From Deferribacterales bacterium (GTDB lineage Bacteria; Chrysiogenota; Deferribacteres; Deferribacterales; Geovibrionaceae), in the NCBI GenBank assembly GCA_050253075.1, contig JBFWJS010000002.1:256001-320000 (forward strand): DNA of 64,000 nucleotides, given 5' to 3'. Position numbers and translations under genes: made by a program. This document shows, piece by piece, positions 44,891 to 61,475 of this stretch (the stretch's first letter is position 1; the number at the start of each line of letters is the position of its first letter). A model generated the notes under the pieces. It searched no databases, was not told where the DNA came from, and saw only the letters and a program-made list of their open reading frames with translations.

Positions 44891-45382
44891 ATGCGTACTG
44901 TAGTATTTGGCGCAGGTAACCTCCTCCTTTCAGACGAAGGGCTGGGGGTTCACCTCGTGCGCAGAATGAATGAAAAATATATGCCGTCGTCGGACGTAGA
45001 ATTCTACGACGGCGGCACTATGGGTATTCTCGCCACACATAAGCTGGAAGAGACTGACCATGTCATCATCGTAGACTCCCTGGAGGCCTCAGGCACTCCG
45101 GGCGAGCTGCGTGTGTATGAAAAGAATGACATCATGCTGGACAAGATCCCTGCGAAGATGTCTCCGCATCAGATAGGCCTTCAGGAAGTCCTGACCCTCA
45201 GCGAGCTCCGTGGCAAAGCGCCTGAGACCATCACATTTTACGGTGTGATACCTGCCAGCCTCGACAGCTCAGTAGAGCTCAGCAAAGAGGTAGCAGTAAA
45301 GCTGGACGAGATAGAAGCCCTGATAATAAATGAACTGAGTGAGATGGGAATCGAGCTGAAGCAGTTCGCTGCTGCAGTTTAG
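44891..45382 (+). CDS. hybD: Hydrogenase maturation protease
   Basis: GAGNLLLSDEGLG, DGGTMG, SPHQIGL. Confidence 0.92.
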   Translation: MRTVVFGAGNLLLSDEGLGVHLVRRMNEKYMPSSDVEFYDGGTMGILATHKLEETDHVIIVDSLEASGTPGELRVYEKNDIMLDKIPAKMSPHQIGLQEVLTLSELRGKAPETITFYGVIPASLDSSVELSKEVAVKLDEIEALIINELSEMGIELKQFAAAV

Positions 45383-45398
45383 GCGATAATAGCACAAT

Positions 45399-45430
45399 AA
45401 AAAACGGCAGGGGATCTCCGCTGCCGTTTT
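45399..45430. terminator. Bidirectional terminator between hybD and the sigma54 transcript
   Basis: AAAACGGCAG...CTGCCGTTTT. Confidence 0.85.
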
Positions 45431-45680
45431 CCAGCAAACAAAACGAGAGGTAAGGGCTTGTTTGCTAAACATTTATTCAAATGTGTAATGGCCTAAAAAA
45501 AGCTCTGGAGATATAAGAGGATCTCCAGAGCAAAAAGCGGCGAAACCGCATATGCATCTTGGTTATGATTTCTTATCAACTCGGTAGTCTGATTAAAAGA
45601 GCGGAGGACTTCTCCTCCGCTCAATCAGGTATGTGGCTAAATACTTGCCTATAGTACTTAAACTTAATTCCGAGGAGTTA
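45399..45680 (-). ncRNA. Candidate sigma54-dependent multi-hairpin non-coding RNA
   Basis: Lies directly downstream of a consensus -24/-12 promoter; five stem-loops; no SD-supported ORF. Confidence 0.6.
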
Positions 45681-45691
45681 CTTTATATAAA

Positions 45692-45706
45692 GCAACGGAC
45701 GTGCCA
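45692..45706 (-). promoter_or_regulatory. sigma54 (-24/-12) promoter
   Basis: Minus strand TGGCACGTCCGTTGC = TGGCAC-N5-TTGC consensus. Confidence 0.85.
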
Positions 45707-45782
45707 AAAACGGCAAAGTTATGTAAAGCACTATAGGCTAAGTATTATTCCGAATGAGATAATTAGTTCACAGACGAAAACA

Positions 45783-45868
45783 TGACGAATATCCGCCATG
45801 GCATTTTTAACCAATTCTTATTTTCTGCATAATTACTAGATATTTAACACGATGGCGAATTTTCGCCG
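45783..45868. promoter_or_regulatory. Two palindromic candidate enhancer (UAS) sites
   Basis: TGACGAATATCCGCCA (45783-45798) and TGGCGAATTTTCGCCG (45853-45868); third copy at 47291-47306. Confidence 0.6.
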
Positions 45869-45873
45869 TAGGA

Positions 45874-47247
45874 TTATTCTTCGATGAGGCCGTATTTCTC
45901 CAGTTTATAGCGGAGAGTACCTCTCGGAGTATTTAAAAGACGTGACGTGCCGGACACATTCCCTTCGGTGATGTCCAAGGCTTTCATAAGTATCTGTTTC
46001 TCTATTTCCTGCAGTGTCTTATCCAGATCCAGCCCATCTTCGGGGATGTCTATATCACTGCATTTTTTCACTGATCGTCCCTCGGGCTGAAGCTCCACGG
46101 GGAGCATTTCAGGCGTTATGACCTCTGTATTATTCATAATGCATATCCGCTCCACCATATTTTTCAGTTCGCGAATATTTCCCGGCCAGGGGTACTGGCG
46201 AAAAACAGCCAGTGCATCTTTCGAAAAACTTTTAATATTTTTCTTAAAATCTTTATTAAACTTTTTAATGAACATCTCAAGAAGCGGAGCAATGTCCTCT
46301 GCCCTCGCCCTGAGAGGCGGGAGCTCTATGGGGAAAACGTTCAGCCTGTAATAGAGGTCTTCCCTGAAGGTCTTCTCCTCTATAGCTTCTTTCAGGTCTT
46401 TGTTTGTGGCTGCGATGATGCGGACATTTATATCTATGTTCCTTGTACCGCCGAGCCTGCGTATCTTCCTCTCTTCGAGCACACGCAGCAGCTTCACCTG
46501 CAGGTTAAGATCCATCTCGCCCAGCTCGTCGAGGAACACTGTCCCCCCTGCGGCCTCTTCCAGCAGACCTATCTTCCTCACCTTTGCATCGGTGAATGCG
46601 CCCTTTTCATGTCCGAAGAGCTCTGATTCCAGCAGGTTATACGGGAGCGATCCGCAGTTTATATCTACGAAAGGCTTATCCTTTCTGGGTGACAGCATGT
46701 GTATGGCTCTGGCAGCGACTTCCTTACCGGTTCCGCTTTCGCCTGTTATCATGACGGTGGCGTTCTCGTGCTTTGCCACCTCTTCTATCTGTTTGAAAAC
46801 GTTCACCATAGCAACGCTGGAGCCCACTATCTCAGGCAGGTCGGCTATGCCTCCCCTTCTGATGGATTTCAGCTCACGCTTCAGGCTCTGTGTTTCCAGC
46901 GCCAGCCTGACGATGAGGTGTATGGCGTCCGCCTTGAAAGGCTTCTTGATATAGTCGTATGCGCCCATTTTAAGAGCCTCTACGGCGGTCTCTACCGTGC
47001 CGTAGCCTGTTATGATGATGACGAGTATATCAGGGTCTGCTTCTTTGATCTCACGCAGGATATCAAGCCCGCTCTCCTCGCCCAGATTCATATCCAAAAG
47101 GATAAGGTCGGGGTCGTCATTAGCGAGGCGTTCGATGGTCTCCGCTCTGTTCACGGCGGATATCACCTCATAGCCTTTTGATGTGAGGGTGCGTTCTATT
47201 GTCTCTCTGATAAATTGTTCGTCGTCTACGACTAATATTCTTTCCAT
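45874..47247 (-). CDS. sigma54-dependent response regulator (NtrC/AtoC family)
   Basis: REC domain, GESGTGKE, ESELFGHEKGAFTDA, FREDLYYRLNV, Fis-type HTH. Confidence 0.95.
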   Translation of the reverse strand: MERILVVDDEQFIRETIERTLTSKGYEVISAVNRAETIERLANDDPDLILLDMNLGEESGLDILREIKEADPDILVIIITGYGTVETAVEALKMGAYDYIKKPFKADAIHLIVRLALETQSLKRELKSIRRGGIADLPEIVGSSVAMVNVFKQIEEVAKHENATVMITGESGTGKEVAARAIHMLSPRKDKPFVDINCGSLPYNLLESELFGHEKGAFTDAKVRKIGLLEEAAGGTVFLDELGEMDLNLQVKLLRVLEERKIRRLGGTRNIDINVRIIAATNKDLKEAIEEKTFREDLYYRLNVFPIELPPLRARAEDIAPLLEMFIKKFNKDFKKNIKSFSKDALAVFRQYPWPGNIRELKNMVERICIMNNTEVITPEMLPVELQPEGRSVKKCSDIDIPEDGLDLDKTLQEIEKQILMKALDITEGNVSGTSRLLNTPRGTLRYKLEKYGLIEE

Positions 47248-47290
47248 GGGATATGATTATATGACAAACGAAATAATTAGCAATGGGAAA

Positions 47291-47306
47291 CGGCGAAAAT
47301 CCGCCA
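47291..47306. promoter_or_regulatory. Third copy of the palindromic motif, upstream of the response regulator
   Basis: CGGCGAAAATCCGCCA. Confidence 0.55.
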
Positions 47307-47307
47307 C

Positions 47308-49731
47308 TTATTTTAGAGAAAATGTGATAATGAATTCGGTCCCGTTCCCTTTGGTGCTGTTTACGTCTATGACACCCTTGTGATCGGTGATTATATTGTG
47401 AGTAATGGCGAGCCCGAGCCCCGTCCCTTCGCCCTTAGTGGTATAGAAAGGCTCGAATATCAGCTTTATCTTTTCCTCGTCCATACCGACGCCCGTATCT
47501 TTTATATGCACTTTTATTCCTGAGATGGATTTATACGCCTTTATGCTGAGCGTACCGCCATCGGGCATTGCTTCTGCGCCGTTTTTGATGAGGTTCAGCA
47601 GAGCCTGCTTCAGCTTTGCACTCTCCATAGGAAATGGCGGGATGTTCTCTGATATATCTATTTCAAATTTTATATTCTTCTTCTCATACTGTTTCTTCAC
47701 CATGAAGACAATGTCGTCTATAACGGGGGCGATGTCCCCGTCCTTGAGCTCTATACTGGATGCACGGGCAAAGCTGAGCAGCTCTGTTATCAATGCTTCC
47801 AGTCGCTCTATCTCATTAAGCGACCTGCGTATGAGGTCCTGCTCCTCGGGCTTTCCTATCAGCATGTCGTGCAGATCGTCCAGCAGAATGCTGACGCCTG
47901 TCAGCGGGTTTCTAATCTCGTGTGCGAGCCCCGCAGAGAGCCTTCCCAGAGATGCCAGCCTCTCCATACGCTCAAGATGGGCACGCATGCTCATACGCTC
48001 CGTAACATCTTCTATGGTCAGTATCTTACCCTGATAGCTGCCTATGGACAGCGGCAGGACGGCCACACGGAAAATCTTCTTTCTTCCTGCGATGGTCACT
48101 TCGAGGTAATCGTCGAACCTCTGCACGCTGTACTGTTCTATCCCCGAACGCACGTATGTACGTATCTGAGGCAGATTCTCCGCCATTTCGTCAAAATCGA
48201 CCTCTTCTTCAAAGAAATGCACGCCAAAGATGCTTCTGGCGGAAGCGTTCATGAATGTGACCATATTTTCATGGTTTATGGTGATGACACCCGTGTCGAT
48301 ATTTTCAAATACCGTGGTCTTGAATACCTGCTCCCAGAGTAGTTCGTGGCGGTTACGCTCCAGCTCCTCCAGAGAATCCTGAAGATGCTGCCTCTGTTCG
48401 TTCAGGCTGAGAGCCATAGTGTTGAACGATTTCGCCAATACGCCTATCTCGTCGTTGCTCTTAACGTCTGCATATATGTCCAGCTTGCCCGATGCCATCT
48501 CCTTCGTGCTGGCGAGGAGTATGTTAATAGGCTTTACCAGACCTCTCGATATCTTGAAACTAACGTAAAGAACTATCATAAGGACTATTACGACATATAC
48601 CCATGACCTGAATATATAGCTCTTAAACTCGAAGCGGATAGTGTCCGACGTGACCCTTGCTGCCTTGTGGAACATATTTACCTCGGCGCCGATAGCCACC
48701 CCGCCGAATATCCTGTGTCTCTTATACTCTCCGTGTGCGAAAGGGATCGGCGCATAAGCCATGATCCTGGGAACACCGCCCACGTTTGTGACGCTGATAA
48801 CACCGCTTTTGCCAACACGCACGGCACTCGCCGCAGTTGGATAGTTTTTATGTATGAATCCTGAGAAAAGGAGATTGAAAGGACGTGTCCCCTCCTCCTG
48901 CTCCAGTGATGTAAATGGCTCCATAAGATTCCCGTCTTTGTCGTATCCTCTGATGTCTTCCTTCTTCGGGTGGGCTATCATCCAGCCGTCGTCATCAAAA
49001 AGGAATGCATAACTCCCGCTCATATACGGCGTCTTCACGGCAAGCTCCCCTGTGGGGTATATATGCTTTATCAGCTCGTCTATGTGTCTCTGGTCGAGGG
49101 AAAGTATGATAAGACCTATCTGCTTGTCTTCGTCAAAGACCTTTTTGACAAATCTGAATTCTCCCTCATAGTCCTGAGCGGAATTCTTGTCCCTGTACCA
49201 GCCAGACAAGCGGGATACGTATATGTCGTTATCTCTCATAGCCATAGCTTTGGCATAATAATCTTCTGTAAGATACGTGGTGTTTTCAGGCTTTGAGATA
49301 TCTCTCAGCATCTCTGGACGTCCGTGACGGATGCGTATCTTTTCATGCCCTGATGTATCCGCAAAGGCTATCTCGGCATAGAGGGGGACTTCCTTTTTAT
49401 ACTCCACCCCTTTCAGCTCGTCCCACAGGACACCCCTGCGTGTATCGTAAAATTTTATATAGTTAGTGTATGAAGGCGTAACAAGGGCGAGGCTGTCCGC
49501 ATCGCTCTTTATATCGCTGAGGAACATGGATATCTTATCCGCCGATGAATTCGCCACCTGTGCCAGCATATATTCTGTCTGTCCGTCGAGGGCATCGGAC
49601 GCCTTCTGACGCAGATATGTGTCGGAAAGTTTAAGCCCCGCAGATAGATATAGGAAATGGATAATGAGCGGAATAACCGCCAGACCGATGAACGCAAAAA
49701 ATATCTTTGAATAAATGGACATCTTTTTCAT
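47308..49731 (-). CDS. Sensor histidine kinase (large periplasmic Cache-like domain, HAMP, PAS)
   Basis: Two TM helices, HAMP DEIGVLAKSFN, AGLAHEIRNPL, GTGLGLAI. Confidence 0.93.
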   Translation of the reverse strand: MKKMSIYSKIFFAFIGLAVIPLIIHFLYLSAGLKLSDTYLRQKASDALDGQTEYMLAQVANSSADKISMFLSDIKSDADSLALVTPSYTNYIKFYDTRRGVLWDELKGVEYKKEVPLYAEIAFADTSGHEKIRIRHGRPEMLRDISKPENTTYLTEDYYAKAMAMRDNDIYVSRLSGWYRDKNSAQDYEGEFRFVKKVFDEDKQIGLIILSLDQRHIDELIKHIYPTGELAVKTPYMSGSYAFLFDDDGWMIAHPKKEDIRGYDKDGNLMEPFTSLEQEEGTRPFNLLFSGFIHKNYPTAASAVRVGKSGVISVTNVGGVPRIMAYAPIPFAHGEYKRHRIFGGVAIGAEVNMFHKAARVTSDTIRFEFKSYIFRSWVYVVIVLMIVLYVSFKISRGLVKPINILLASTKEMASGKLDIYADVKSNDEIGVLAKSFNTMALSLNEQRQHLQDSLEELERNRHELLWEQVFKTTVFENIDTGVITINHENMVTFMNASARSIFGVHFFEEEVDFDEMAENLPQIRTYVRSGIEQYSVQRFDDYLEVTIAGRKKIFRVAVLPLSIGSYQGKILTIEDVTERMSMRAHLERMERLASLGRLSAGLAHEIRNPLTGVSILLDDLHDMLIGKPEEQDLIRRSLNEIERLEALITELLSFARASSIELKDGDIAPVIDDIVFMVKKQYEKKNIKFEIDISENIPPFPMESAKLKQALLNLIKNGAEAMPDGGTLSIKAYKSISGIKVHIKDTGVGMDEEKIKLIFEPFYTTKGEGTGLGLAITHNIITDHKGVIDVNSTKGNGTEFIITFSLK

Positions 49732-49851: not shown

Positions 49852-50727
49852 TTATTTCACTACGAGCTTAAGAGCTACAGGAACGTAGGCCTCGACCTTT
49901 TTACCGTCGAGAACAGCTTTCGCAGTATCTACACCCATAGAGCCGATGAAAGCAGGCTGCTGTGCAACAGTTGCAGCAAGCTCGCCGTCTTTAACAGCTT
50001 TTACAGCGTCGTCTGTGGCGTCAAAGCCGACAACGAGTATCTTTCTCTGTGTTCCCTGAATAGCTTTCAGTGCGCCGAGAGCCATTTCGTCGTTATGAGC
50101 GAAAACAGCATCGATAGCAGGCTGAGCCTGAAGGATGTTTTCCATAACGTTCAGACCTTTTGTTCTGTCGAAGTCTGCTGCCTGCCTAGCTACAACTTTC
50201 ACTGCTGATCCTTCGATAGCAGAGTTAAAGCCCTTGCCTCTGTCTCTGGCTGCGGATGTTCCGGGGATACCTTCCAGCTCGACAACATTGCCTTTCTTAC
50301 CCAGCTTTTCCATGATGAACTCGCCTGCCATTTTACCGCCTGCGATGTTGTCGGATGCGATGTGAGAAACTACGTCGCCTCTGTTTGCGCCTCTGTCGAG
50401 TGTGATAACAGGCACTTTAGCTCTGTTTGCCATCTTGATGGCGTTGCCGACTGCATCTGAATCTGTCGGGTTGATGAGGATAGCCGCTACACCTCTGGAG
50501 AGGAGGTCTTCAACGTTTGCTATCTCTTTTGCAGGGTCGTTCTGAGAATCAAGGACGACCAGATCTATTCCAAGCTCTCCTGCTTTGCTCACTGCTCCGT
50601 CTTTCAGAGTGACAAAGAAGGGGTTGTTCAGTGTGGATACCACGAGGCCGACAGTCTTTCCTGCGGCGAGTACGGGCATAGCAGCAAATGCGACCAGCGC
50701 CAGTACTGTTACTAAAATCTTTTTCAT
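49852..50727 (-). CDS. rbsB: Ribose ABC transporter substrate-binding protein
   Basis: [39 protein letters not shown]; start moved to MKKIL. Confidence 0.93.
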
Positions 50728-50755
50728 AGCTGACTCCTTATACAAATGTGATTAC

Positions 50756-51694
50756 TCACTTCTTTCTATCCATAAGGACGGCGATGAGTATCACCGCTCC
50801 TTTTGCGATCATCTGATAATATGAAGATACGTTCATGAGATTCAGGGCGTTGTTCAGTATGCCTATGATAAGCGCACCGGTGAATGTGCCGAATATAGTG
50901 CCCAGACCGCCTGCGAGGCTTGTGCCCCCGAGCACAACGGCAGCAATGGCGTCCAGCTCATACCCTGCGCCCGCCGTGGGCTGTGCGGATGAGAGCCTTG
51001 ACGTGAGTATTATCCCCGCTATGGCTGCGGTCAGACCGCTGATGGCATAGACGGCTATCTTCACCCTGCTGACACGCACACCTGAGAGTCTGGATGCCTC
51101 TTCGTTACCGCCTATGGCATACACATATCTGCCGAATCTGGTGTGCTTCAGCACATAATACGACACAGCAAACACCGCTATCATCAGCACCACAGGCACA
51201 GGTATGCCGAAAATGTATCCTGTGCCGAACCATGCATATATATCTGCCGCCTCTTCGTATCCTGTGGATATCGGCTTCCCGTCGGTGAAGACGAGTGTCG
51301 CACCACGAAGGAGCGTCATCCCCACAAGGGTTGCTATGAAAGGCTGCACCTTGCCTTTTGTAATGGCGACACCGGCGAGCATACCTAGTATCGTACCCAG
51401 TGAAAGGGTTGTAAAGAGCGACACGGCAACGCCGTAGTCATGGGCTATCATAAAAGCAGACACGGCACCACATATGGCGAGTATCGACCCGACAGAGAGG
51501 TCTATCCCGCCAGTGAGAATAACAAATGTCATACCCGCAGCGATAACGGCGTTTATGGACGTCTGCCTGAGCACATTCATAATGTTGTTAACTGTCAGGA
51601 ATCTGGGGCTGATCAGGGATACAATAACCGCCAGAATTATCAGCCCTAGCAATGGTCTGAATTTTATAAGCATTTCTTTAGCTGTCATTTTCAT
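50756..51694 (-). CDS. rbsC: Ribose ABC transporter permease
   Basis: GGIDLSVGS, QPFIATL, YELDAIAAVVLGG. Confidence 0.93.
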   Translation of the reverse strand: MKMTAKEMLIKFRPLLGLIILAVIVSLISPRFLTVNNIMNVLRQTSINAVIAAGMTFVILTGGIDLSVGSILAICGAVSAFMIAHDYGVAVSLFTTLSLGTILGMLAGVAITKGKVQPFIATLVGMTLLRGATLVFTDGKPISTGYEEAADIYAWFGTGYIFGIPVPVVLMIAVFAVSYYVLKHTRFGRYVYAIGGNEEASRLSGVRVSRVKIAVYAISGLTAAIAGIILTSRLSSAQPTAGAGYELDAIAAVVLGGTSLAGGLGTIFGTFTGALIIGILNNALNLMNVSSYYQMIAKGAVILIAVLMDRKK

Positions 51695-51704
51695 CCGAAC
51701 ACCC

Positions 51705-53216
51705 CTAGCCTGCTCTTTTCGTCAGGTTTTTCATAGCGAAAGCCATTATGCTCTCCTGTGTGGCTTCCTCTTTTGAGAGTTCGCCTGCGACCTCTCCCGA
51801 GCTTATCACCAGTATCCTGTCGCTCATACCAATCACTTCGGGCATTTCGGAGGATATCAGTATTATGGCGAGCCCTTTCTCTTTCAGCTCGTTTATCAGC
51901 TCGTATATCTCTTTCTTCGCACCGACATCCACACCTCTGGTCGGCTCGTCCAGTATGAGCACCTTCGGCTCTGTGACCAGCCCTTTGCCTATGGCGACCT
52001 TCTGCTGATTTCCTCCGCTGAGGTTCACTACCTTCTGCATAGGTCCAGTGGTCTTTATGGACATTTTTTCGATATACATCTTCGAGGCTTCTTCCTCTTC
52101 GCCTGTGGAAATAAATCGGAATATATTCTGAAAGGCTTTCAAAGCGGGGAGAGTTATATTTTCCTTAATGCTCATGCCAAGTATCAGCCCGAGCTGTTTT
52201 CTGTCTTCGGAAACGTAGGATATGCCGTTTTCTATGGCGGATGAAGGGTGATTTATGCGGAGCTCCTTTCCGTCGATGACTATGCGTCCTTTGGAGAGAG
52301 CCATATATCCATAGACAGATTTTGCTATCTCGCTTCTGCCTGAGCCCATCAGCCCTGCGATGCCGAGTATCTCGCCCTTACGAACGGAGAATGTTACGTC
52401 TTTTATCGCCTGATTGGTCAGCCCCTCTACCTCAAACACGACATCGCCGTGCGTCGCTGTCGATATGGGGAAACGCTCGTCGAGAGCACGCCCCACCATA
52501 AGCTGTATGATCTTCTCCTCGGTAAGCTCGCTCACGGGCTTCATATCCACAAATGTGCCGTCACGCAGAACAGTTGCCCTGTCGCAAATATCGAATACTT
52601 CGGAAAGTTTATGAGAAATATAGACGAGTCCTTTCCCCTGACTTTTAAGCTCACGGATCACCTTATACAGGTTCTCCGTTTCCACATCTGTCAGCGAGTC
52701 TGTGGGCTCGTCCATGATGATTATCTTTGCGTTCATGGAGATGGCTTTGGCTATCTCGACTATCTGCGCCTTTCCGACACTGAGTGAAGACACCTTTGTC
52801 AGCGGAGACATCTCCGATTCTCCCAGCATGGCGAGGTATTCGGCTGCCCTTGCATTCATCTCTTTATACTTTATCCTGCCGTATACTGTCACAGGCTCAC
52901 GCCCGATGAATATATTCTCCGCAACGGTCAGCTCCGGCACAAGGTTCAGCTCCTGATGGATTATCGCTATCCCCTTTTTCTGTGCGTCTTTAGGGTCTCT
53001 GAGGTTCAGCGGTTCGCCTTCTAAGAATATCTCTCCGCCGTCTTTGGTATATACACCGCTGAGGATCTTCATCAGGGTGGATTTACCCGCCCCGTTCTCG
53101 CCCAGCAGAGCCATAATCTCCCCCGCATAGATATTGAACGAGACATCACCGAGAGCCTTTACACCGGGGAATCCCTTCACAATGTTCTTCATCTCCAGCA
53201 TTGGCTTGGCACTCAT
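51705..53216 (-). CDS. rbsA: Ribose ABC transporter ATP-binding protein
   Basis: GENGAGKST, LSGGNQQKV, DEPTRGVDVGAK; start moved to ATG 53216. Confidence 0.93.
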   Translation of the reverse strand: MSAKPMLEMKNIVKGFPGVKALGDVSFNIYAGEIMALLGENGAGKSTLMKILSGVYTKDGGEIFLEGEPLNLRDPKDAQKKGIAIIHQELNLVPELTVAENIFIGREPVTVYGRIKYKEMNARAAEYLAMLGESEMSPLTKVSSLSVGKAQIVEIAKAISMNAKIIIMDEPTDSLTDVETENLYKVIRELKSQGKGLVYISHKLSEVFDICDRATVLRDGTFVDMKPVSELTEEKIIQLMVGRALDERFPISTATHGDVVFEVEGLTNQAIKDVTFSVRKGEILGIAGLMGSGRSEIAKSVYGYMALSKGRIVIDGKELRINHPSSAIENGISYVSEDRKQLGLILGMSIKENITLPALKAFQNIFRFISTGEEEEASKMYIEKMSIKTTGPMQKVVNLSGGNQQKVAIGKGLVTEPKVLILDEPTRGVDVGAKKEIYELINELKEKGLAIILISSEMPEVIGMSDRILVISSGEVAGELSKEEATQESIMAFAMKNLTKRAG

Positions 53217-53611
53217 CAGAACACCACTCCCGAATGCAGTATAACATTCGCATAAGGCGTGCATTCGCCTGTTCTTATCACAGCTTTGGCTTTCTTTGTG
53301 AGTTCTTTGAAATCCTCGTGGGACACATAGTGGTCTTCAGCCCCTTTGAGCTGTTTCTTGACGGCTTTTTCTATTGATGGATTATTAAAGTTTATCTCGT
53401 TTGCCAGAGTGTACTTCTCCACCTGAAGCTCCGAGACGACATTTTCCAAAACAGAGAGAAAGTCAGGCAGACCTTTACAAACGGCAAGATCAATTCGCTC
53501 CACACCGTCAGGTATGGGCAGTCCCGCATCGGCTATTACTATCATGTCCGTATGCCCCATCTCAGCGATAACAGCAGAGATACGGCTGTTTAAAAGTTTG
53601 CCTTTTTTCAT
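53216..53611 (-). CDS. rbsD: D-ribose pyranase
   Basis: [28 protein letters not shown]. Confidence 0.95.
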
Positions 53612-53659
53612 AGTCGACCCTCTCTATATATAAGAATACCAAAGTACACAAACATGGCA

Positions 53660-53696
53660 ACTAAAACTTTTAGCAAATTTTACTAAAAATTTTAGT
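53660..53696. promoter_or_regulatory. Tandem palindromes, candidate LacI-family operators
   Basis: CTAAAACTTTTAG (53661-53673) and ACTAAAAATTTTAGT (53682-53696) between divergent rbsD and the LacI gene. Confidence 0.6.
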
Positions 53697-53800
53697 TCAT
53701 CTCACAAAAACATGTTATAATGTGTAATAGAAGATATCCCGATGTTTATCTATTTAATGCTAAGTGCTAAACAAATATAGACAAAACCAAGCAGAAGACT

Positions 53801-54850
53801 ATGAGCAAAAACATAACAGTAACAGAGATAGCAAAATTAGCAGAAGTTTCACCCTCCACGGTCTCCCTCGTTTTAAACGGTAAGCAGGGGGTGGGGAGTG
53901 AAGTACGTGAAAAGGTTCTGAAAATAGCCCGTGAGCACAACTATAAAGGGATGACAAGCGGCGGACTCAGCAGAAAGAACAAGACCATCTTATTTGTAAA
54001 CATAGTAAAACACGGACAGATACTTAATAAAAACCATAAGGCGTTCGTCGCCGACTATATAAACGGCGCAGTGACCGAAGCAGAGGAGAACGGCTATGCA
54101 CTAGAGGTGACAGCCTTCGACAGCTTCGACCCTGTGACGCTCACAGAGCACATAAACGCATCATACGCATCAGGCGCACTGATACTGGGCACAGAGCTGG
54201 AGGAAGCAGACATACTGCACCTCGCCACAGTCAAGATACCCGTCGTTTTTATAGACGTGCTCTCCCCTCATCTCCCCTTCGACTTTGTAGACATGAACAA
54301 CGACTCGTCTGTCTTCAACATCATGTCATATATAAAAGAGATGGGACATACATCCACAGGAATAGTGACAGGCTCTCATATCACGAGCAATTTCGCCCAC
54401 AGGATGCGCAGCTACGAGCGGTCTCTCGAACTGCTCGGAATAGATTACGACAAAAATTTCGTCTTCACCGTTAATTCGAAATATGAAAAAGCATATGAAG
54501 ACATGAGCACAATACTGGATAAAAAGCCGAAGATGCCAACAGTGCTCTTCTGCGTAAACGACATAATAGCCCTCGGCTGTATGAAAGCACTGAAAGAACA
54601 CGGATACCGCATACCCGAGGATATATCAATAGCCGGCTTTGACAACCTTGCCATGAGCTCTATGGCAGAACCGCCGTTAAGCACTGTAAAAGTATCCAAG
54701 AGAAGGATAAGCATAGCCGCTGTCGATCTTCTGCTTAAGCGGATGAACAGCGGAGAACGCACCCCATATGAAAAAATAATGATAGGCGGTGAAGTGATGA
54801 AAAGAGAGAGCATAAGGGACATGAAAGCCCCTCAGAAGGAGGAATCATGA
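53801..54850 (+). CDS. LacI-family transcriptional regulator (RbsR-like role)
   Basis: TVTEIAKLAEVSPSTVSLVLN HTH; IPEDISIAGFDN. Confidence 0.92.
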   Translation: MSKNITVTEIAKLAEVSPSTVSLVLNGKQGVGSEVREKVLKIAREHNYKGMTSGGLSRKNKTILFVNIVKHGQILNKNHKAFVADYINGAVTEAEENGYALEVTAFDSFDPVTLTEHINASYASGALILGTELEEADILHLATVKIPVVFIDVLSPHLPFDFVDMNNDSSVFNIMSYIKEMGHTSTGIVTGSHITSNFAHRMRSYERSLELLGIDYDKNFVFTVNSKYEKAYEDMSTILDKKPKMPTVLFCVNDIIALGCMKALKEHGYRIPEDISIAGFDNLAMSSMAEPPLSTVKVSKRRISIAAVDLLLKRMNSGERTPYEKIMIGGEVMKRESIRDMKAPQKEES

Positions 54851-55755
54851 GCAGATTCTGCATAGCAGGAAGCATAAATATGGATCTGGTGACAAAGGTT
54901 TCACGCTTCCCGAAACCGGGCGAAACAATATCAGGGCTGGCATTTAACACCTTCACCGGCGGTAAAGGGGCTAATCAGGCGGTGGCTCTGGCAAAACTTG
55001 GTGCCGAAACATCCATGGTAGGCAGAACAGGAAGCGACATTTATGCCTCTCAGTATATGTCATATTTCAAAACGCTGAACATAGACACGGCAGGGATAGA
55101 GGCTGTGGATACATCCACAGGGATAGCAGCCATCAGCGTAGACGGTAAAGGCGAAAACTGCATCATATACGTCGAAGGCGCAAACGGCACTGTAGACCCA
55201 GCATACATCCGCTCGAAAGCTGAAATAATAGCAAAGGCAGACTATCTGCTCCTTCAGCTTGAGATACCTATGGATGCAGTATGTGAAGCGGCTAAGACAG
55301 CATCGGAAAACGGCAGGACGGTAATACTCGACCCTGCGCCGGCAAAGGCAGTGCCGAACGAACTGCTTAAACACACCACGATAATAACCCCGAACGAGAC
55401 CGAAGCAGAGATATTAACAGGGATAAAACCGAGCAGTGACGCCGACATCGAAAAGATAGGCAAAGCACTTGCAAATAAAGGCGTTTCCACCGTTATCATC
55501 AAAGCTGGAAGCCGTGGAGCATACATATATCAAAGCGGAAAAATAACCCATGTAGAAGGCTTTAAAGTAGACACGGCAGACACCACCGCAGCGGGCGATA
55601 CCTTCAACGCAGGGCTGGCATATGCCCTCGGCACAGGAAAGAAGATCAAGGATGCAGTCCTTTTTGCAAATGCGGCGGCAGCCATCTCCACCACAAGGGT
55701 CGGAGCACAGAGCGGAATGCCTTCACTAGGCGATGTGAAAGCCCTCCTCGGATGA
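54847..55755 (+). CDS. rbsK: Ribokinase
   Basis: GSINMDL, GGKGANQA, TPNETE, DTTAAGDTF. Confidence 0.95.
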   Translation: MSRFCIAGSINMDLVTKVSRFPKPGETISGLAFNTFTGGKGANQAVALAKLGAETSMVGRTGSDIYASQYMSYFKTLNIDTAGIEAVDTSTGIAAISVDGKGENCIIYVEGANGTVDPAYIRSKAEIIAKADYLLLQLEIPMDAVCEAAKTASENGRTVILDPAPAKAVPNELLKHTTIITPNETEAEILTGIKPSSDADIEKIGKALANKGVSTVIIKAGSRGAYIYQSGKITHVEGFKVDTADTTAAGDTFNAGLAYALGTGKKIKDAVLFANAAAAISTTRVGAQSGMPSLGDVKALLG

Positions 55756-56033: not shown

Positions 56034-57062
56034 GTGCAAGAAATAGTTATGGTAGAAAAACTTACACTTTCAAAAGACATTCAGAATGCCAGGGAGCTGA
56101 TCGAGTCTCACGGTCTGACATATGATGAGAAGTTCGACACCCTTGCCGGTATATTCGAAGGTGAAAACCTCATCGCTACCGGTGCGCGCAAAAACGATAT
56201 ACTCAAAATGTTCGTAGTGACACAGAGCTTCTCAGGAGCGGATAACCTCGGTGAAATGTGTACATTCCTGCTGAATGACGCCGTCGCATCAGGCTTCAGC
56301 AATGTATTCTTATTTACTAAAACCGAATACGCACAGAGCTTTACCCAACTTAATTTCAAAACTCTGGCAACAGGCACAAAAGCTGTGCTGATGGAGTTCG
56401 GCAACGGCTTCTCTAAATACATCGAAAGCATCAAGCCTCTGGTACACACCGAAAATAACGGTGCAATAGTGATGAACTGCAACCCATTCACCAACGGTCA
56501 CAGATACCTCGTTGAACAGGCAGCATCAAAGGTAGAGACACTCATACTATTCGTAGTGAAAGAGGAACGCTCGCTCTTCACATTTGAAAGCAGGCTGGAG
56601 CTGGTGAAACAAGGGACGGCACACATAGATAACGTGGTGGTCACAGACACATCCAGCTATGCCGTTAGTGATGCGACATTTCCTTCATATTTCATCAAAA
56701 ACACGGATGAAAAAATTCAGGCACAGATAGAGCTCGACCTGAACATCTTTGCAAAAAAGATAGCACCTGAGCTGAACATCAGGAAACGATTCGTAGGCAC
56801 TGAGCCTTTCTGCGACACCACAGGCAGATACAACGACATGATGAAGGATATACTCCCCTTAAACGGAATAGAGTTAGTAGAGATCCCCCGTGTAAAGCAT
56901 AAGGGTGAAGAGGTCAGCGCATCAAAAGTGCGCAGGGCTCTGGCCGAGGAAAACTATGAGATAATAAGGGAGTGTGTGCCTGAGTCCACATACAGCTATC
57001 TGTGCTCAAAAGAATTTCAGGATAAAATTAAAGATATAAATATCAATGAAAGGAGACATTAA
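56034..57062 (+). CDS. citC: [Citrate (pro-3S)-lyase] ligase
   Basis: GAIVMNCNPFTNGH, ATFPSYF, RFVGTEP, VSASKVR; start may be ATG 56049. Confidence 0.93.
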   Translation: MQEIVMVEKLTLSKDIQNARELIESHGLTYDEKFDTLAGIFEGENLIATGARKNDILKMFVVTQSFSGADNLGEMCTFLLNDAVASGFSNVFLFTKTEYAQSFTQLNFKTLATGTKAVLMEFGNGFSKYIESIKPLVHTENNGAIVMNCNPFTNGHRYLVEQAASKVETLILFVVKEERSLFTFESRLELVKQGTAHIDNVVVTDTSSYAVSDATFPSYFIKNTDEKIQAQIELDLNIFAKKIAPELNIRKRFVGTEPFCDTTGRYNDMMKDILPLNGIELVEIPRVKHKGEEVSASKVRRALAEENYEIIRECVPESTYSYLCSKEFQDKIKDININERRH

Positions 57063-57325
57063 TGAACATCATTAAAAACGCTCAGGCAGGCACTATGCAG
57101 TCCAGCGACCTTATGGTTTTCGTAGAGCCGTCGGACAGCCTGATCATAGAGATAGAGTCTTCTGTTTTAAAGCAGTTCGGACATCTCATCCGTGAAAAGA
57201 CCGAACAGGTGCTCGCTAAGAACGAAGTAAAAAAAGGACTTATAAAGATAATAGACAGAGGTGCTCTGGACTATGCCATAGAGGCAAGGATAGAGACCGC
57301 AATACAGAGAAGCTGCGGAGAATAA
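57062..57325 (+). CDS. citD: Citrate lyase acyl carrier protein (gamma subunit)
   Basis: AGTMQSSD prosthetic-group Ser motif, KQFG, DRGALD. Confidence 0.92.
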   Translation: MNIIKNAQAGTMQSSDLMVFVEPSDSLIIEIESSVLKQFGHLIREKTEQVLAKNEVKKGLIKIIDRGALDYAIEARIETAIQRSCGE

Positions 57326-57327
57326 CA

Positions 57328-57807
57328 ATGCACAAGGAACTTTGGTATAAAGAATACGACCCGGCCAGACGCTTCATAGTGAAGATAACTCCGGGGAGCA
57401 ACATCGTCAGAAAGCTGAAGAAATTCGCCAAAACTGAAAATGTAAAGAACGCCGTAATACTCTCCGCCGTGGGCTCAGTAAAAAATGTAACCTTCCGAGG
57501 CGTAAAAACCGGGGCGAAGCTGCCCATAACAGAGCCGAGGATAATGATACACAATGTCGAAGGTCCGCTTGAGCTCTTAGGGCTGGAGGGGAATATTTTC
57601 CCCGATGAGAGCGGCGAACCGGATGCACACCTGCACATAATGATGGCGAAGTCTTCAGGCGAGGTGATAGGCGGGCACATGTATGACTGCGACGTCTTTG
57701 CATCGTGTGAGATACTCCTGCAAGAGCTCATCGTCACCGGTGTGGAGAGACACATCTCCGCCACAGGCGGCACATCCACAATATTTATCGAAGGTGAAGA
57801 GATATGA
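57328..57807 (+). CDS. PPC/DUF296 domain protein
   Basis: SAVGSV, ELLGLEGN, HLHI, VIGGH motifs. Confidence 0.85.
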   Translation: MHKELWYKEYDPARRFIVKITPGSNIVRKLKKFAKTENVKNAVILSAVGSVKNVTFRGVKTGAKLPITEPRIMIHNVEGPLELLGLEGNIFPDESGEPDAHLHIMMAKSSGEVIGGHMYDCDVFASCEILLQELIVTGVERHISATGGTSTIFIEGEEI

Positions 57808-58718
57808 GCAAGCTGCGCAGATCCATCCTTTACGTCCCCGGAAACATGCCGTCCATGCTGCAGAACATTCCCGTCTTCAAATCTGACGGTATATTCATAG
57901 ACCTCGAAGACGCAGTCCCCCTTTCGGAAAAGGACGCAGCCAGAAAGATAGTAAGAAAGTTCCTCGAAAACTATAAAAACCGCACAAGCGAAACATTCGT
58001 CCGCATCAACGGACTGGAGACAAAGTGGGGCTATGACGACCTGCGTGAAATACTCCCCGCAAAGCCCGACGGAGTGCGCCTGCCGAAAGCAGACACGCCC
58101 GAGATAGTCGAACGCCTCGACACATTCCTCACAGAGATGGAGGAGGAGCTAGGCTTCGAGATAGGACATTTTAAGATAATTCCATCCATAGAAAACGCAC
58201 TCGGCGTCATAAACTGCATCAAAACTGCACGTACGACAAAGCGTGTGATAGCCCTCGCATTCGGTGCAGAGGACTATACGGCGAGCCTTGAGGTTCAGCG
58301 TACGAAATCAGGCGAGGAGCTCTTCCACGCAAGGACAAGGGTCATCTGGGCAGCAAAAGCTGCGGGCATACAGGCGATAGACACCGTCTTCACCGATGTT
58401 GCCGATATGGACAGCTTCCGCCGTGAATGTGAGCTTATCAAGACACTCGGCTTTACAGGCAAATCCCTCGTAAACCCTCGCCAGATAGACGTTCTGCATG
58501 AAGTTTTCGCTCCGAAACGTGAGGAGATAGAATACGCCAACGACGTCATGGAAGCCATCATAGAAGCACGTAAGATGGGAACAGGCGTTATATCCCTGCG
58601 AGGAAAGATGATCGACGCACCTGTTGTAAAGCGTGCGTACACAGTTTTGAAAACAGCATACGCACAAGGGCTCATAGAGATCGAGCCTGATGAGGAGGTA
58701 ATCTATGGTGCGCAATAG
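57804..58718 (+). CDS. citE: Citrate lyase beta subunit (citryl-ACP lyase)
   Basis: RRSILYVPGN, DLEDAV, VRING, FGAEDY, GKSLVNPRQ, GKMIDAP. Confidence 0.92.
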   Translation: MSKLRRSILYVPGNMPSMLQNIPVFKSDGIFIDLEDAVPLSEKDAARKIVRKFLENYKNRTSETFVRINGLETKWGYDDLREILPAKPDGVRLPKADTPEIVERLDTFLTEMEEELGFEIGHFKIIPSIENALGVINCIKTARTTKRVIALAFGAEDYTASLEVQRTKSGEELFHARTRVIWAAKAAGIQAIDTVFTDVADMDSFRRECELIKTLGFTGKSLVNPRQIDVLHEVFAPKREEIEYANDVMEAIIEARKMGTGVISLRGKMIDAPVVKRAYTVLKTAYAQGLIEIEPDEEVIYGAQ

Positions 58719-60243
58719 CCTCGGCAGACTGCTCCCCGAAGAATACAACGGCAGAAAGGTGATCCCGTACAGCGACCCTTTCAGTGTGAAGCCAAGCGGT
58801 GAAACAGCCACCAGAGAGCTCCGCAGAGTGAACAGCACAGATAATAAGCTGCTCGGCTCCATCAGAGAAGCAATAGACGCCGTAGGGCTGAAAGACGGCA
58901 TGACGATAGCCACTCACCACCACCTGAGAAACGGCGATGCCGTGCTCGGCGCCGTGGTAAAGGCGATAGATGAAAAAGGACTTAAAAATATAAAGATAGC
59001 ATCCAGCTCGGTCCACCCCGTACACGCAGAGATCATCCCATACATCGAAAAGGGTGTAATAACAGCATTTGAGTGCGGTGTGAACGGACCGATAGGCGAA
59101 AAAGCATCCAGAGGCGAACTTAACTGTCCGATAATCGTGCGCAGTCACGGCGGACGTGCCAGAAGCCTCATGGAAGGAAGCGTTGTGGTAGACGCCGCCT
59201 TCATAGCTGCCCCTGCATGTGACGAATACGGCAATATGCTCGGATACAGCGGACAGTCCGCATGCGGTTCTCTCGGATACGCAAAGGTGGACGCATCCTA
59301 TGCGAAAAAGGTCGTAGCCGTCACAGACAACCTCGTCCCATTCCCTGCCGCACCTTATTCCATCCCTCAGTCTGAGGTGGACTACGTGGTAAAGGTAGAC
59401 TCGCTGGGCGACCCTTCGAAGATAGTATCCACCACCACAAGGATAACAACAGACCCCGTGGGGCTCCAGATAGCTAAATACGCGGCCAGCGTGATCGAAT
59501 CCTCAGGTCTGCTCAAAAACGGCTTCTCCTTCCAGACAGGCTCAGGGGGGATATCTCTCGCCGTTGCAGATAATGTGAAGAAGATGATGCTGGAGAAAGA
59601 GATAAAAGGGAGCTTCGGATGCGGAGGCATCACAGGATACTTCGTAGACATGCTCGAACAAGGGCTTTTCCAGACGCTCTTCGACGTGCAGTGTTTCGAC
59701 CTGAAAGCCGTGGAATCCATAGGCAGAAACAGAAACCACGTGGAAATAAGCGCAGACCTCTATGCCAATCCTTTCAACTGCGGAGCGATAGTGAACAAGC
59801 TCGACACCGTTATCCTCGGTGCAACAGAGATAGACACCAGCTTCAACGTGAATGTGAATACAGAGTCCAACGGACTGCTCCTGCACAACACAGGCGGACA
59901 CTCTGACACTGCCGCAGGTGCGAAACTCTCCATAATAGTCGCTCCGTCCATCAGAGGCAGGCTGCCCATCATCCGTGAGGAGCTGACAACCATAACCACC
60001 CCCGGTGAGACTGTTGACGTGGTCGTCACTGAGCTGGGCATAGCAGTAAACCCGAAAAACGAAGACCTGAAAAGGGAACTGATAAAGAACAAGCTCCCCG
60101 TGAAAGATATAAACCAGCTCCATGAAGAGATCATCGCCATTACAGGAAAGCCGAGACCCCTCGAATTCACCGATGAGATCATAGCTCTGATAGAGTACAG
60201 GGACGGAACGATAATAGATGCCGTTAGAAAAATTAAAGCGTGA
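58705..60243 (+). CDS. citF: Citrate lyase alpha subunit (citrate:acetyl-ACP transferase)
   Basis: GLKDGMTI.THHHLRNGD, RSHGGR, FQTGSGG, GGHSDTA, EYRDGTIID. Confidence 0.94.
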   Translation: MVRNSLGRLLPEEYNGRKVIPYSDPFSVKPSGETATRELRRVNSTDNKLLGSIREAIDAVGLKDGMTIATHHHLRNGDAVLGAVVKAIDEKGLKNIKIASSSVHPVHAEIIPYIEKGVITAFECGVNGPIGEKASRGELNCPIIVRSHGGRARSLMEGSVVVDAAFIAAPACDEYGNMLGYSGQSACGSLGYAKVDASYAKKVVAVTDNLVPFPAAPYSIPQSEVDYVVKVDSLGDPSKIVSTTTRITTDPVGLQIAKYAASVIESSGLLKNGFSFQTGSGGISLAVADNVKKMMLEKEIKGSFGCGGITGYFVDMLEQGLFQTLFDVQCFDLKAVESIGRNRNHVEISADLYANPFNCGAIVNKLDTVILGATEIDTSFNVNVNTESNGLLLHNTGGHSDTAAGAKLSIIVAPSIRGRLPIIREELTTITTPGETVDVVVTELGIAVNPKNEDLKRELIKNKLPVKDINQLHEEIIAITGKPRPLEFTDEIIALIEYRDGTIIDAVRKIKA

Positions 60244-60709
60244 GATACTGCAAAGCAGAGATGACCGACAGCAGGAGATAGACAGACTGGTACAGGGTGG
60301 TAAACCCCTTGTGTCCCTCTCCGCAAATATCCCGGGTGATGATAAAAAGCCCGCAGGATTCAACGATATCTTTGCGCATGTCTGTGGTTTGGTCAAGGAG
60401 AGCGCAGAGCTCGTATATACCTGCGACGATGCTCTCGGGCCGTTCGCCCTCTTCCTGTCTGAGACGCCTCAGACTGAGCTGAAGCGTGCCATGGTAACCA
60501 TAGAAAATGCCCATGCATGGGGCAGACTGATAGACATCGATGTTTATGACGATGCAGGACTGCCAATAAGCAGAGCCTCGCTCGGCTTTGAAGAAAGAGG
60601 ATGCCTGATATGCTCCGACACGGCGAAAAGCTGTATCAAAGCAGGCAGACACAGTATGAAAGACCTGATGAGGGCTGCAAATGATATTATCGACAGATAC
60701 CACTGCTGA
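60218..60709 (+). CDS. citX: Apo-citrate lyase phosphoribosyl-dephospho-CoA transferase
   Basis: NIPG, GRLIDIDV, ISR, CLIC...C. Confidence 0.88.
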   Translation: MPLEKLKREILQSRDDRQQEIDRLVQGGKPLVSLSANIPGDDKKPAGFNDIFAHVCGLVKESAELVYTCDDALGPFALFLSETPQTELKRAMVTIENAHAWGRLIDIDVYDDAGLPISRASLGFEERGCLICSDTAKSCIKAGRHSMKDLMRAANDIIDRYHC

Positions 60710-61475
60710 TATTAATAAGCTGACTAATAAACTAACAGAGGGGTCAAGGGTAGAGCTATATCTCACACCGAAGCCCGGACTGGTGGACATGCTGAATAAC
60801 GGCTCCCACACAGACCTTGATCTGCTGAAGATGACAAAATCCATACACATCATTGAAAGATATATGAACCGCATAGCCGACAGCCTCACAGACGGACAGC
60901 CTCTGGCTGATCAGGTGCGTCTGGGCAGAGAAGCCGAGGCAGAGATGTATGACAAACTCGGCACGAACACACATAGGGGATACATATTCCTCTCCGGTCT
61001 GATAGCCTCCGCCGCTTATCACAGCCCGAAAGACATCAGAGGGATGATAAAACTGCTGTCACTCGAACTTTTCGCAGATGTGCGGGACACAAACAGCAAC
61101 GGACAGAAAGTGCGTGAAAAGCACAACGAAGGCGGTATAGCCGAAGAGTGCCTGAAAGGTCTGCCGTCTATATTTGAAAATTCGCTCCCTGCATTTCGTA
61201 AAGCCTATGAAAAGACAGGCTGTTTCCGCACCGCATCTTTCTTTGCACTGGCTAATCTGATGCAGAATGTGACAGACACCACAGCCATACACAGATGCGG
61301 TCTCGAAGGGCTGGACATCATTAAAAAAGACGGTAAAATTCTGGAAGAGCTCATAAGGTCGGGACTGCCGTTCGATGACTTCCTTAAAAAGCGCAATGAG
61401 CAATACGTAAAGCTGAATCTGACGATGGGCGGTATAGCCGACATGCTCGGCATCACGGTAGCACTAGCCCTCTAA
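60681..61475 (+). CDS. citG: Triphosphoribosyl-dephospho-CoA synthase
   Basis: TPKPGLVD..NNGSHTD, NTHRG, DTTAIHR, GGIADML. Confidence 0.9.
   Translation: MILSTDTTADINKLTNKLTEGSRVELYLTPKPGLVDMLNNGSHTDLDLLKMTKSIHIIERYMNRIADSLTDGQPLADQVRLGREAEAEMYDKLGTNTHRGYIFLSGLIASAAYHSPKDIRGMIKLLSLELFADVRDTNSNGQKVREKHNEGGIAEECLKGLPSIFENSLPAFRKAYEKTGCFRTASFFALANLMQNVTDTTAIHRCGLEGLDIIKKDGKILEELIRSGLPFDDFLKKRNEQYVKLNLTMGGIADMLGITVALAL

What the first reader, a model, noticed from the sequence alone, without database searches (positions are those of the whole stretch)
45399..49731. Two-component system whose sigma54 output appears to be an ORF-less, multi-hairpin RNA converging on the hydrogenase operon
Seen: a perfect TGGCAC-N5-TTGC promoter (45692-45706, minus) lies about 170 bp downstream of the NtrC-type regulator. 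It fires into about 280 bp with no SD-supported ORF (only a 26-codon ATG frame) and meets hybD head-on. The predicted RNA (start about 45680) has five stems: 45599-45608/45613-45622 (extendable to 45589-45628, then U4), 45537-45549 (U5), 45502-45512/45521-45531 (loop CCUCUUAU, U7), 45433-45441/45458-45466 (loop GCCCUUACCUCUCGUU), and the terminal bidirectional terminator. The 5' end AACUCCUCGG could also pair with CCGAGUU (45578-45584). The staggered U-tailed hairpins would give nested RNAs of about 85, 150, 185 and 280 nt. Known: sigma54/bEBP-driven sRNAs exist (LuxO-Qrr, GlrR-GlmY), and CU-rich loops commonly pair with SD sequences. Inference: this is an undescribed sensor -> bEBP -> sRNA circuit, possibly controlling energy metabolism. 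The loops are complementary to AAGAGG in the hybO leader and AGAGGTAA in the 2-oxoacid oxidoreductase leader, but these matches are short.
Basis: partly seen in the sequence, partly recalled or inferred. Interest (0 to 1): 0.82.

Follow-up and report, generated by a model that had tools for sequence, protein, structure and literature searches.

The report
Small RNA replaces transporter as output
A bacterial sensor-regulator pair that switches on a transporter gene in most relatives appears here to switch on a conserved, undescribed small RNA instead; the layout has precedents, and neither its transcription nor its target is shown.

Summary
The conserved unit is the first 186 nt (45680-45495, minus). 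Homologues of 190-201 nt sit behind the same enhancer pair and sigma54 promoter beside the orthologous regulator in 7 of 7 genomes of a sister genus; in 5 of them the whole cassette is inverted. All share a 9-nt motif, a small hairpin and a terminator; no reading frame is conserved and no Rfam family matches. A model built without the window finds it as the only hit in its genome (E 7e-8). The other 7 family genomes with this regulator have a DASS anion transporter gene in that slot and no RNA. In this genome the RNA promoter is the only sigma54 site with the enhancer pair. Best reading: an Hfq-type base-pairing sRNA that replaced a transporter as the output of a dCache sensor/bEBP pair. No target survived comparative controls; the proposed hybO and 2-oxoacid oxidoreductase targets rank below the top 1,000 of 2,615 genes. 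No RNA data were available. The layout is known (cbrB-crcZ, DVU0679); the RNA family and the swap were not found in print.

The parts
47308..49731 (-). Sensor histidine kinase, 807 aa: dCache_1, HAMP, PAS, HisKA, HATPase; ligand unknown
   Evidence: Pfam; predicted sensor domain pLDDT 85.5 matches dCache structures at 9-18% identity only
47291..47306 (.). Enhancer-like palindrome just upstream of the regulator start (likely autoregulation, inferred)
   Evidence: PWM score 19.8; a site scoring >=19.8 is at this place in 11 of 15 family orthologues
45874..47247 (-). NtrC-type response regulator / sigma54 activator, 457 aa (REC, AAA+ with GAFTDA loop, HTH_8)
   Evidence: HTH helix conserved across orthologues
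45853..45868 (.). Distal enhancer (UAS1), palindrome of the TGGC-N8-GCCA type
   Evidence: PWM 20.0; same motif before the promoter in RNA-linked and transporter-linked relatives
45783..45798 (.). Proximal enhancer (UAS2)
   Evidence: PWM 19.0
45692..45706 (-). sigma54 -24/-12 promoter; predicted +1 at about 45680
   Evidence: +1 inferred from standard spacing, not measured
45495..45680 (-). Predicted 186-nt non-coding RNA (conserved core)
   Evidence: homologues in 7 genomes; leave-out model hit E 7.3e-8; no Rfam match
45626..45636 (-). 11-nt motif CCACAUACCUG shared with the G013/G008 type only
45589..45628 (-). Central stem-internal loop-stem (P2) with a GCGG/CCGC core
45560..45577 (-). A-rich linker before the conserved motif (candidate Hfq distal/rim site or cleavage site, inferred)
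   Evidence: A fraction 0.43-0.67 in the 30 nt before the motif versus 0.26-0.30 overall in all 8 RNAs
45551..45559 (-). Invariant 9-mer AGAUGCAUA, candidate seed
   Evidence: only 9-mer common to all 8 RNAs; mostly unpaired in the window RNA, partly paired in the five inverted-type RNAs
45537..45549 (-). Small hairpin P3; four G-C pairs invariant in 8 of 8
45495..45531 (-). Intrinsic terminator T1 (11-bp stem, U7); 3' end of the conserved core
   Evidence: 4 of 9 modelled pairs show changes on both sides
45433..45466 (-). Accessory 3' module: stem with CU-rich, anti-SD-like loop; motif 45461-45448 shared with G013 and G008 only
   Evidence: local alignment score 25 versus shuffled mean 15.7, 0 of 500 shuffles
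45399..45430 (.). Second terminator T2, usable on both strands; also the likely hyb operon terminator
44891..45382 (+). hybD-type maturation protease, last gene of the converging hybOABCD operon (neighbour, not part of the unit)
   Evidence: separated from the RNA by four genes in 5 of 8 RNA-bearing genomes

Best explanation
The stretch 45680-45495 (minus) is a stand-alone 186-nt small RNA gene and the only sigma54 output of the upstream two-component pair. Inferred chain: the dCache kinase senses a small periplasmic molecule (probably an anion of the kind carried by DASS symporters, from the partner gene in relatives), phosphorylates the regulator, which binds the two palindromes 160 and 90 nt upstream and activates sigma54 polymerase; the transcript ends at T1, with possible read-through to T2. 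The RNA most likely acts in trans by Hfq-assisted base-pairing through its conserved 3' domain (A-rich linker, invariant 9-mer, small hairpin, terminator, U tail), perhaps after cleavage in the linker. Historically the promoter drove a DASS transporter; in one branch of the regulator family the RNA took the slot, and the transporter was lost or moved to a promoter without these elements. Shown: anatomy, conservation, enhancer-promoter coupling, mutually exclusive slot occupancy. Inferred: transcription (about 0.85), activation by this regulator, Hfq dependence and pairing mechanism (about 0.55), ligand. Target not identified.
For: 14 of 15 other family genomes hold the regulator at 63-75% identity; 7 have the RNA and 7 a DASS gene (PF00939) behind the same enhancer and promoter. 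Core similarity between the three RNA types scores 56, 62 and 88 against shuffle maxima of 28, 26 and 31 at 55-65% identity. Leave-out model: single hit in G000, E 7.3e-8; best E 0.70-0.99 or none in the 8 other non-training family genomes. Structure: 96% of cells paired, 6 pairs changed on both sides, 0 of 500 shuffles. Cassette inverted intact in 5 genomes. Enhancer-pair score 39.1 versus 13.3 for the next of 72 sigma54-like sites; a strict enhancer+promoter pattern hits once, at the RNA, in 5 of 7 sister-genus genomes. RNA-linked regulators form one group, 100/100. DASS not found in G000; its 6 copies in the sister genus have no enhancer or sigma54 site in 500 nt upstream. hfq in 5 of 5 genomes tested. 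One conserved single-copy motif rather than repeated motifs.
Against: No transcript evidence. No convincing target: best seed energies about -12 kcal/mol; no perfect 9-mer site shared by G000, G013 and G010 (40, 11 and 7 sites); TAXI, regulator-feedback, DASS and nuo candidates failed controls. The 9-mer is AU-rich, contains a palindrome and is predicted partly paired in 5 of 8 RNAs. The 8 sequences are only three independent types; the alignment was fitted to the structure, and 'further pair types' was not above shuffles (430 of 500). The enhancer matrix came from sites picked with a pattern I wrote after seeing these loci, so its score is partly circular. Hfq, CsrA and RapZ are also present in RNA-less relatives. 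In Desulfuromonadales the same slot can shrink to promoter plus old DASS terminator, so ORF-less slots can be relics.
Confidence: 0.55

Rival explanations
1. The RNA is real but works as a protein decoy (CrcZ-, CsrB- or GlmY-like): the 9-mer plus the two GCGG/CCGC hairpins form a protein-binding surface that titrates an RNA-binding protein such as Hfq, the two-domain Hfq-like protein, RapZ or CsrA.
For: No base-pairing target found; P3 and the P2 core are invariant in sequence, not only in pairing; genome encodes Hfq, a second protein with two Hfq domains, CsrA and RapZ; crcZ has the same gene order (PMC8871633, passages).
Against: 0-2 AANAANAA and 2-4 GGA per RNA; no Rfam match to CrcZ, Csr/Rsm or Glm families; the candidate proteins do not track with the RNA.
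Confidence: 0.2
2. Non-functional relic: the transporter gene was deleted and promoter, leader and terminators were left behind.
For: In Desulfuromonadales the DASS terminator persists behind the bare promoter (L069, L071, L072) or directly behind the regulator with no promoter (L272); sister-genus kinases lack the sensor domain (216-304 aa).
Against: The core shows no similarity to DASS genes or their UTRs above shuffles; invariant motif at 55-65% overall identity; enhancers and promoter kept in 8 of 8; cassette survived an inversion intact.
Confidence: 0.1
3. One reading: a 280-nt multi-hairpin RNA whose CU-rich loops block Shine-Dalgarno sites of energy-metabolism genes (hyb, 2-oxoacid oxidoreductase; or nuo).
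For: The second CU-rich motif plus terminator is conserved in G000, G013 and G008; with the window loop, nuoH, nuoL, nuoD and nuoE rank 2, 3, 5 and 7 of the 150 best-duplex genes rescored with accessibility (gene names from my recognition of the sequences); anti-SD-like terminator loops are also conserved in the Desulfuromonadales units.
Against: Absent from 5 of 8 homologues; hybO and the 2-oxoacid gene rank 1093-1845 of 2,615; the four nuo sites pair as well in RNA-less G001, G002, G003 (-76 to -84 versus -80) and poorly with the own motif in G013/G008 (-55); T1 is a strong terminator (-19.1 kcal/mol, U7).
Confidence: 0.1
4. The unit encodes a small peptide starting at the ATG inside the invariant motif, or acts as antisense RNA to hybD.
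For: An ATG lies in the motif in all 8 RNAs; the RNA faces hybD in 3 of 8.
Against: The frame gives 14 codons in two genomes and runs through the terminator in six, with unrelated residues after codon 4 and no SD; a 1-nt loop indel shifts the window frame. The RNA ends more than 110 nt before the hybD stop and is unlinked from hybD in 5 of 8.
Confidence: 0.05

Closest known systems
CbrA-CbrB-crcZ of Pseudomonadaceae (PMC8871633, passages read)
   Same: Kinase, bEBP regulator and a separate sigma54-dependent regulatory RNA directly downstream.
   Different: CrcZ titrates Hfq/Crc; CbrB has a large regulon. This RNA has 0-2 AANAANAA motifs (motif recalled; count), no Rfam match, and appears to be the only sigma54 output.
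Desulfovibrio vulgaris DVU0679 and DVU0653 (PMC3333781, PMC4641369, passages read)
   Same: Two-component bEBP whose listed target is one ncRNA just downstream of the regulator gene; function unknown. Closest in layout.
   Different: Different phylum; sequence relation of regulator, binding site and RNA to this system was not tested (sequences not in hand); no transporter-to-RNA swap in the passages read.
LuxO-Qrr (PMC10162802, passages read)
   Same: Phosphorylated bEBP, two enhancer sites, sigma54 promoter, sRNA acting post-transcriptionally.
   Different: No Rfam match to Qrr; single copy; no pairing to the own regulator leader; input is a dCache kinase rather than a quorum phosphorelay.
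GlrK/GlrR-GlmY (abstract starts of PMC4152352 and PMC7073468 seen; rest recalled)
   Same: sigma54/bEBP-driven RNA of similar length (about 184 nt, recalled); RapZ homologue present.
   Different: No Rfam match; no second similar RNA (GlmZ-like) found in the genome.
DctB/DctD-type control of a dicarboxylate transporter (recalled)
   Same: dCache kinase plus bEBP activating an adjacent transporter from sigma54 is the state in 7 family genomes and 3 more distant loci.
   Different: Transporter is DASS family; ligand not shown; in the window the output is an RNA.

Membership tests
sigma54/bEBP-activated small RNA (general kind) | -24/-12 promoter directly before the RNA | tested here: met
   perfect consensus in 8 of 8 at 147-161 nt before the motif
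sigma54/bEBP-activated small RNA (general kind) | Enhancer sites for a cognate bEBP about 75-200 nt upstream | tested here: met
   palindrome pair in 8 of 8; assignment to this regulator is by co-occurrence, binding not shown
sigma54/bEBP-activated small RNA (general kind) | No conserved reading frame; own terminator | tested here: met
sigma54/bEBP-activated small RNA (general kind) | Transcript exists and depends on RpoN and the bEBP | not testable with these tools
   no RNA run listed
Hfq-dependent base-pairing sRNA | Hairpin(s) plus 3' U tail; hfq in genome | tested here: met
   P3, T1, U5-7 tail; hfq. The segment before the double hairpin is A-rich, not U-rich as in the module named in a reference title seen
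Hfq-dependent base-pairing sRNA | Conserved accessible seed | tested here: inconclusive
   invariant 9-mer but predicted accessibility varies
Hfq-dependent base-pairing sRNA | Conserved complementary site in a target mRNA | tested here: inconclusive
   none found; only G000 was scanned in full, G013 and G010 only for perfect 9-mers
CrcZ/CrcY | Rfam match; several AANAANAA motifs | tested here: not met
   0-2 motifs
CsrB/RsmY/RsmZ | Rfam match; many GGA motifs in loops | tested here: not met
   2-4 GGA
Qrr; GlmY/GlmZ; 6S | Rfam match | tested here: not met
Riboswitch / attenuator leader | Same-strand gene downstream | tested here: not met
   a converging gene follows in 8 of 8; next same-strand gene 6.7 kb away in G000
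Dispersed repeat (REP-like) | Multiple copies in the genome | tested here: not met
   single copy by blastn and two models
Dv_sRNA2 (DVU0679 target) | Sequence or regulator orthology | not tested
   sequences not available from the calls made

The most novel reading that the evidence does not exclude
A natural record of a signalling pathway being rewired from protein output to RNA output: a transporter-inducing two-component system kept its enhancer and sigma54 promoter, lost the transporter and gained an sRNA as sole effector, and did so at least twice (the 186-nt family in Deferribacterales; a shorter RNA carved from the transporter's own 3' end, with an anti-SD terminator loop, in Desulfuromonadales). 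The RNA may work with the lineage's unusual two-domain Hfq-like protein and would be the first sRNA circuit of this phylum found in the literature searches run here.
Probability: 0.25. Interest if true: 0.75.

Novelty: new member of a known kind. Interest (0 to 1): 0.5.

Why it matters
It supplies a well-delimited sRNA family, with promoter, enhancer and cognate regulator, in a phylum for which the searches run here returned no sRNA study. Because close relatives use the identical enhancer and promoter for a transporter gene, it is a clean case for asking how new sRNA genes arise by taking over an existing regulated promoter, and what a pathway gains from an RNA output. The kind of circuit is already known, the family is narrow (8 of 63 genomes of the order) and no target is known, which limits present impact.

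Tried and rejected
Expression: no RNA holder listed; no evidence either way; no reads were laid. blastn of the intergenic DNA found 0 of 40 relatives; homologues came only through the regulator. Metagenome scan for the motif plus hairpin: 11 hits, none with a sigma54 site or enhancer upstream, judged chance. Order-wide model search: 2 weak extra hits (E 0.043, 0.047), 26 bits, not inspected for promoters; a weak hit at a DASS 3' end was terminator only. The first pair count included 5 weak non-homologous rows and was replaced (8 rows). Origin of the core or the 3' module from DASS sequence: not above shuffles. Targets rejected: hybO and 2-oxoacid gene; nuo; TAXI receptor, site not in 7 of 7 sister-genus homologues, which are only 33-42% identical; own regulator; DASS mRNA, inconsistent sites and gene not found in G000 or G010. 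Target scans used my own gene calls (2,615 genes) and rescored only the best 60-260 duplexes per query; one search timed out and was rerun with a shorter query. The second CU-rich motif matched 29 places in 22 of 63 genomes (control 14); only 3 have a terminator. Ligand: no close solved relative. Three look-ups of earlier findings returned nothing.

Full report
Observation. The minus strand carries a perfect sigma54 promoter at 45706-45692, 167 nt after the stop of a 457-aa NtrC-type regulator, itself preceded by an 807-aa dCache-HAMP-PAS kinase; hybOABCD converges from the other side. The stems, loops and U tails are as described. Of 19 intergenic sigma54-like sites in the genome, 17 have a gene start within 154 nt; this is one of two that do not. 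The 186-nt core folds at z -5.5, matched by 1 of 60 sampled intergenic stretches. There is no Rfam match and no second copy. Small frames exist but none in the core is conserved.

Relatives. Direct DNA search found nothing in 40 relatives, so I followed the regulator. 14 of 15 other genomes of the family hold an orthologue at 63-75% identity; named records with the same arrangement are titled Seleniivibrio or Deferribacteraceae, which places the lineage in Deferribacterales. Behind the regulator, all carry the same palindromic enhancer(s) and a sigma54 promoter. In 7 genomes (G001, G003, G004, G005, G007, G009, G011) the promoter drives a DASS anion symporter, as it does in three distant loci (L065, L073, L077). 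In the 7 genomes of genus g4 it drives a 190-201-nt ORF-less unit homologous to the window's: in G013 and G008 in the window's arrangement, in the other five with enhancer pair, promoter, RNA and terminator inverted together and four genes between it and hyb.

The RNA family. The 8 sequences fall into three types at 55-65% identity; local scores are 56, 62 and 88 against shuffle maxima of 26-31. Shared anatomy: variable 5' part, central stem-loop-stem, A-rich linker, invariant AGAUGCAUA, a hairpin with four invariant G-C pairs, terminator and U tail. On the model-fitted alignment 96% of cells pair and 6 of 27 pairs change on both sides, 4 of them in the terminator (0 of 500 shuffles; one of five measures was not above shuffles); with three independent types this is supportive, not proof. 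A model from all 8 found only these 8 strongly among 63 genomes of the order, plus two weak hits. A model from the 7 relatives alone found the window RNA as the only hit in G000 (E 7.3e-8) and nothing better than E 0.70 in the other 8 family genomes. RNA and transporter thus exclude each other in the slot (8 versus 7), and G002, whose best regulator match is 41%, has neither.

The circuit. A matrix from enhancer sites of 14 relatives scores the RNA promoter 39.1 and the next of 72 sigma54-like sites 13.3 (the seed pattern was written after seeing the loci). A strict enhancer-plus-promoter pattern hits once per genome, at the RNA, in 5 of 7 g4 genomes; the other two have a 74-nt spacing outside the pattern. 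DASS is not found in G000 or G010, and its six g4 copies lie elsewhere without enhancer or sigma54 site. RNA-linked regulators form one group (100/100) inside a larger group whose other branches include DASS-linked members from two phyla (inner branches are open and no clade test was run), so transporter-first is the parsimonious reading. The window's regulator is closer to g4 (73-75%) than to its own genus (64-66%), while NuoH shows the reverse (84-85% versus up to 91%), which points to transfer or differential loss (inference). The g4 kinases lack the sensor domain, so the input differs there. The ligand is unknown.

The 3' extension. The segment between T1 and T2 holds a CU-rich motif shared with G013 and G008 (0 of 500 shuffles) and followed by a terminator only in these three genomes. 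It may be a read-through domain or a second small RNA, but it is not part of the common core.

Mechanism. One conserved single-copy motif next to a double hairpin and U tail, in a genome with hfq, fits a base-pairing sRNA better than a decoy, since CrcZ- and CsrB-type repeats are lacking. Against it, no target emerged. Seed energies were weak, no perfect site was shared by G000, G013 and G010, and each candidate failed a control: hybO and the 2-oxoacid gene rank 1093-1845 of 2,615; four nuo genes ranked in the top seven for the CU-rich loop but pair equally in RNA-less genomes and worse with the G013/G008 motif; TAXI, DASS and regulator leaders were not conserved or not above background. I put a functional regulated RNA at about 0.85 and the Hfq pairing mechanism at about 0.55.

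A parallel and a caution. In Desulfuromonadales, L069, L071 and L072 have enhancer, sigma54 site and an 83-122-nt ORF-less unit whose terminator, with a CCCUCCU loop, is homologous to the DASS 3' end of L077; G064 keeps DASS elsewhere without the promoter. Of 6 matches to this terminator in 233 genomes, 3 follow DASS, 2 follow the bare promoter and 1 follows the regulator with no promoter. This is either a second, 3'-UTR-derived RNA output or decay. The window's core is not detectably related to it.

Known systems. crcZ lies downstream of cbrAB with a sigma-N promoter (PMC8871633, passages). D. vulgaris DVU0679 and DVU0653 each target an ncRNA just downstream (PMC3333781, passages and one supplement search; PMC4641369, passages). 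LuxO-Qrr1 uses two enhancer sites (PMC10162802, passages). Two Hfq-like proteins in Deferribacteraceae were noted before (PMC7074383, passages). Searches (listings and abstract starts) returned no description of this RNA or of a transporter-to-RNA swap; the library lacks most subscription papers. GlmY details and DctB/DctD are recalled.

Verdict. Interest 0.5.

Noticed in passing
L069:5550-5632, L071:2186-2307, L072:5552-5664; L077 DASS 3' end; L272-L277: Desulfuromonadales orthologues have enhancer + sigma54 site + 83-122-nt ORF-less unit ending in the former DASS terminator with a conserved CCCUCCU (anti-SD-like) loop; candidate 3'-UTR-derived sRNA or relic.
   Followed up: partly
G000 C1:404545-405060: A 171-aa protein with two Hfq domains in tandem, besides canonical hfq (C8:51316-51540); present in 5 of 5 family genomes tested.
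   Followed up: partly
L155:9578-10228, L156:10765-11679: Cognate kinases in genus g4 are reduced to HisKA-HATPase (216 aa) or carry only a short N-terminal part (303-304 aa, directly after an MCP gene); the dCache sensor is missing.
   Followed up: partly
window 47291-47306 and 46196-46211: Further strong enhancer-like palindromes before and inside the regulator gene; the upstream one is in 11 of 15 orthologues and absent in genus g3.
   Followed up: partly
G000 C1:222254 upstream (nuoA leader; L226-L242): A 25-nt stretch with a small hairpin next to the SD is nearly invariant in 16 of 16 family genomes; candidate cis-regulatory element of complex I.
   Followed up: no
G000 C2:188090 (minus): Second intergenic sigma54-like site with no same-strand gene called within 7.8 kb and a terminator-like hairpin about 250 nt downstream; the surrounding 3-kb gap may hold uncalled genes.
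   Followed up: partly
L154:6637-10690 (G007; also G005, G009, G011): Genus g3 carries two tandem DASS genes, each with a sigma54-like site; an enhancer-like palindrome lies between them.
   Followed up: no
L066, L069, L076, L078-L082, L092: In many distant loci the regulator is followed within 0-2.3 kb by a hypF-like gene (label from my recognition of the sequence), so linkage to hydrogenase genes recurs outside this family.
   Followed up: no
L003-L009, between RNA and neighbouring gene: Imperfect palindromic repeat elements sit next to the RNA terminator in genus g4.
   Followed up: no
window 56034-61475: Citrate lyase ligase and following genes next to a ribose ABC transporter/ribokinase cluster (49852-55755); citrate is a possible but untested link to the DASS-type input.
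   Followed up: no
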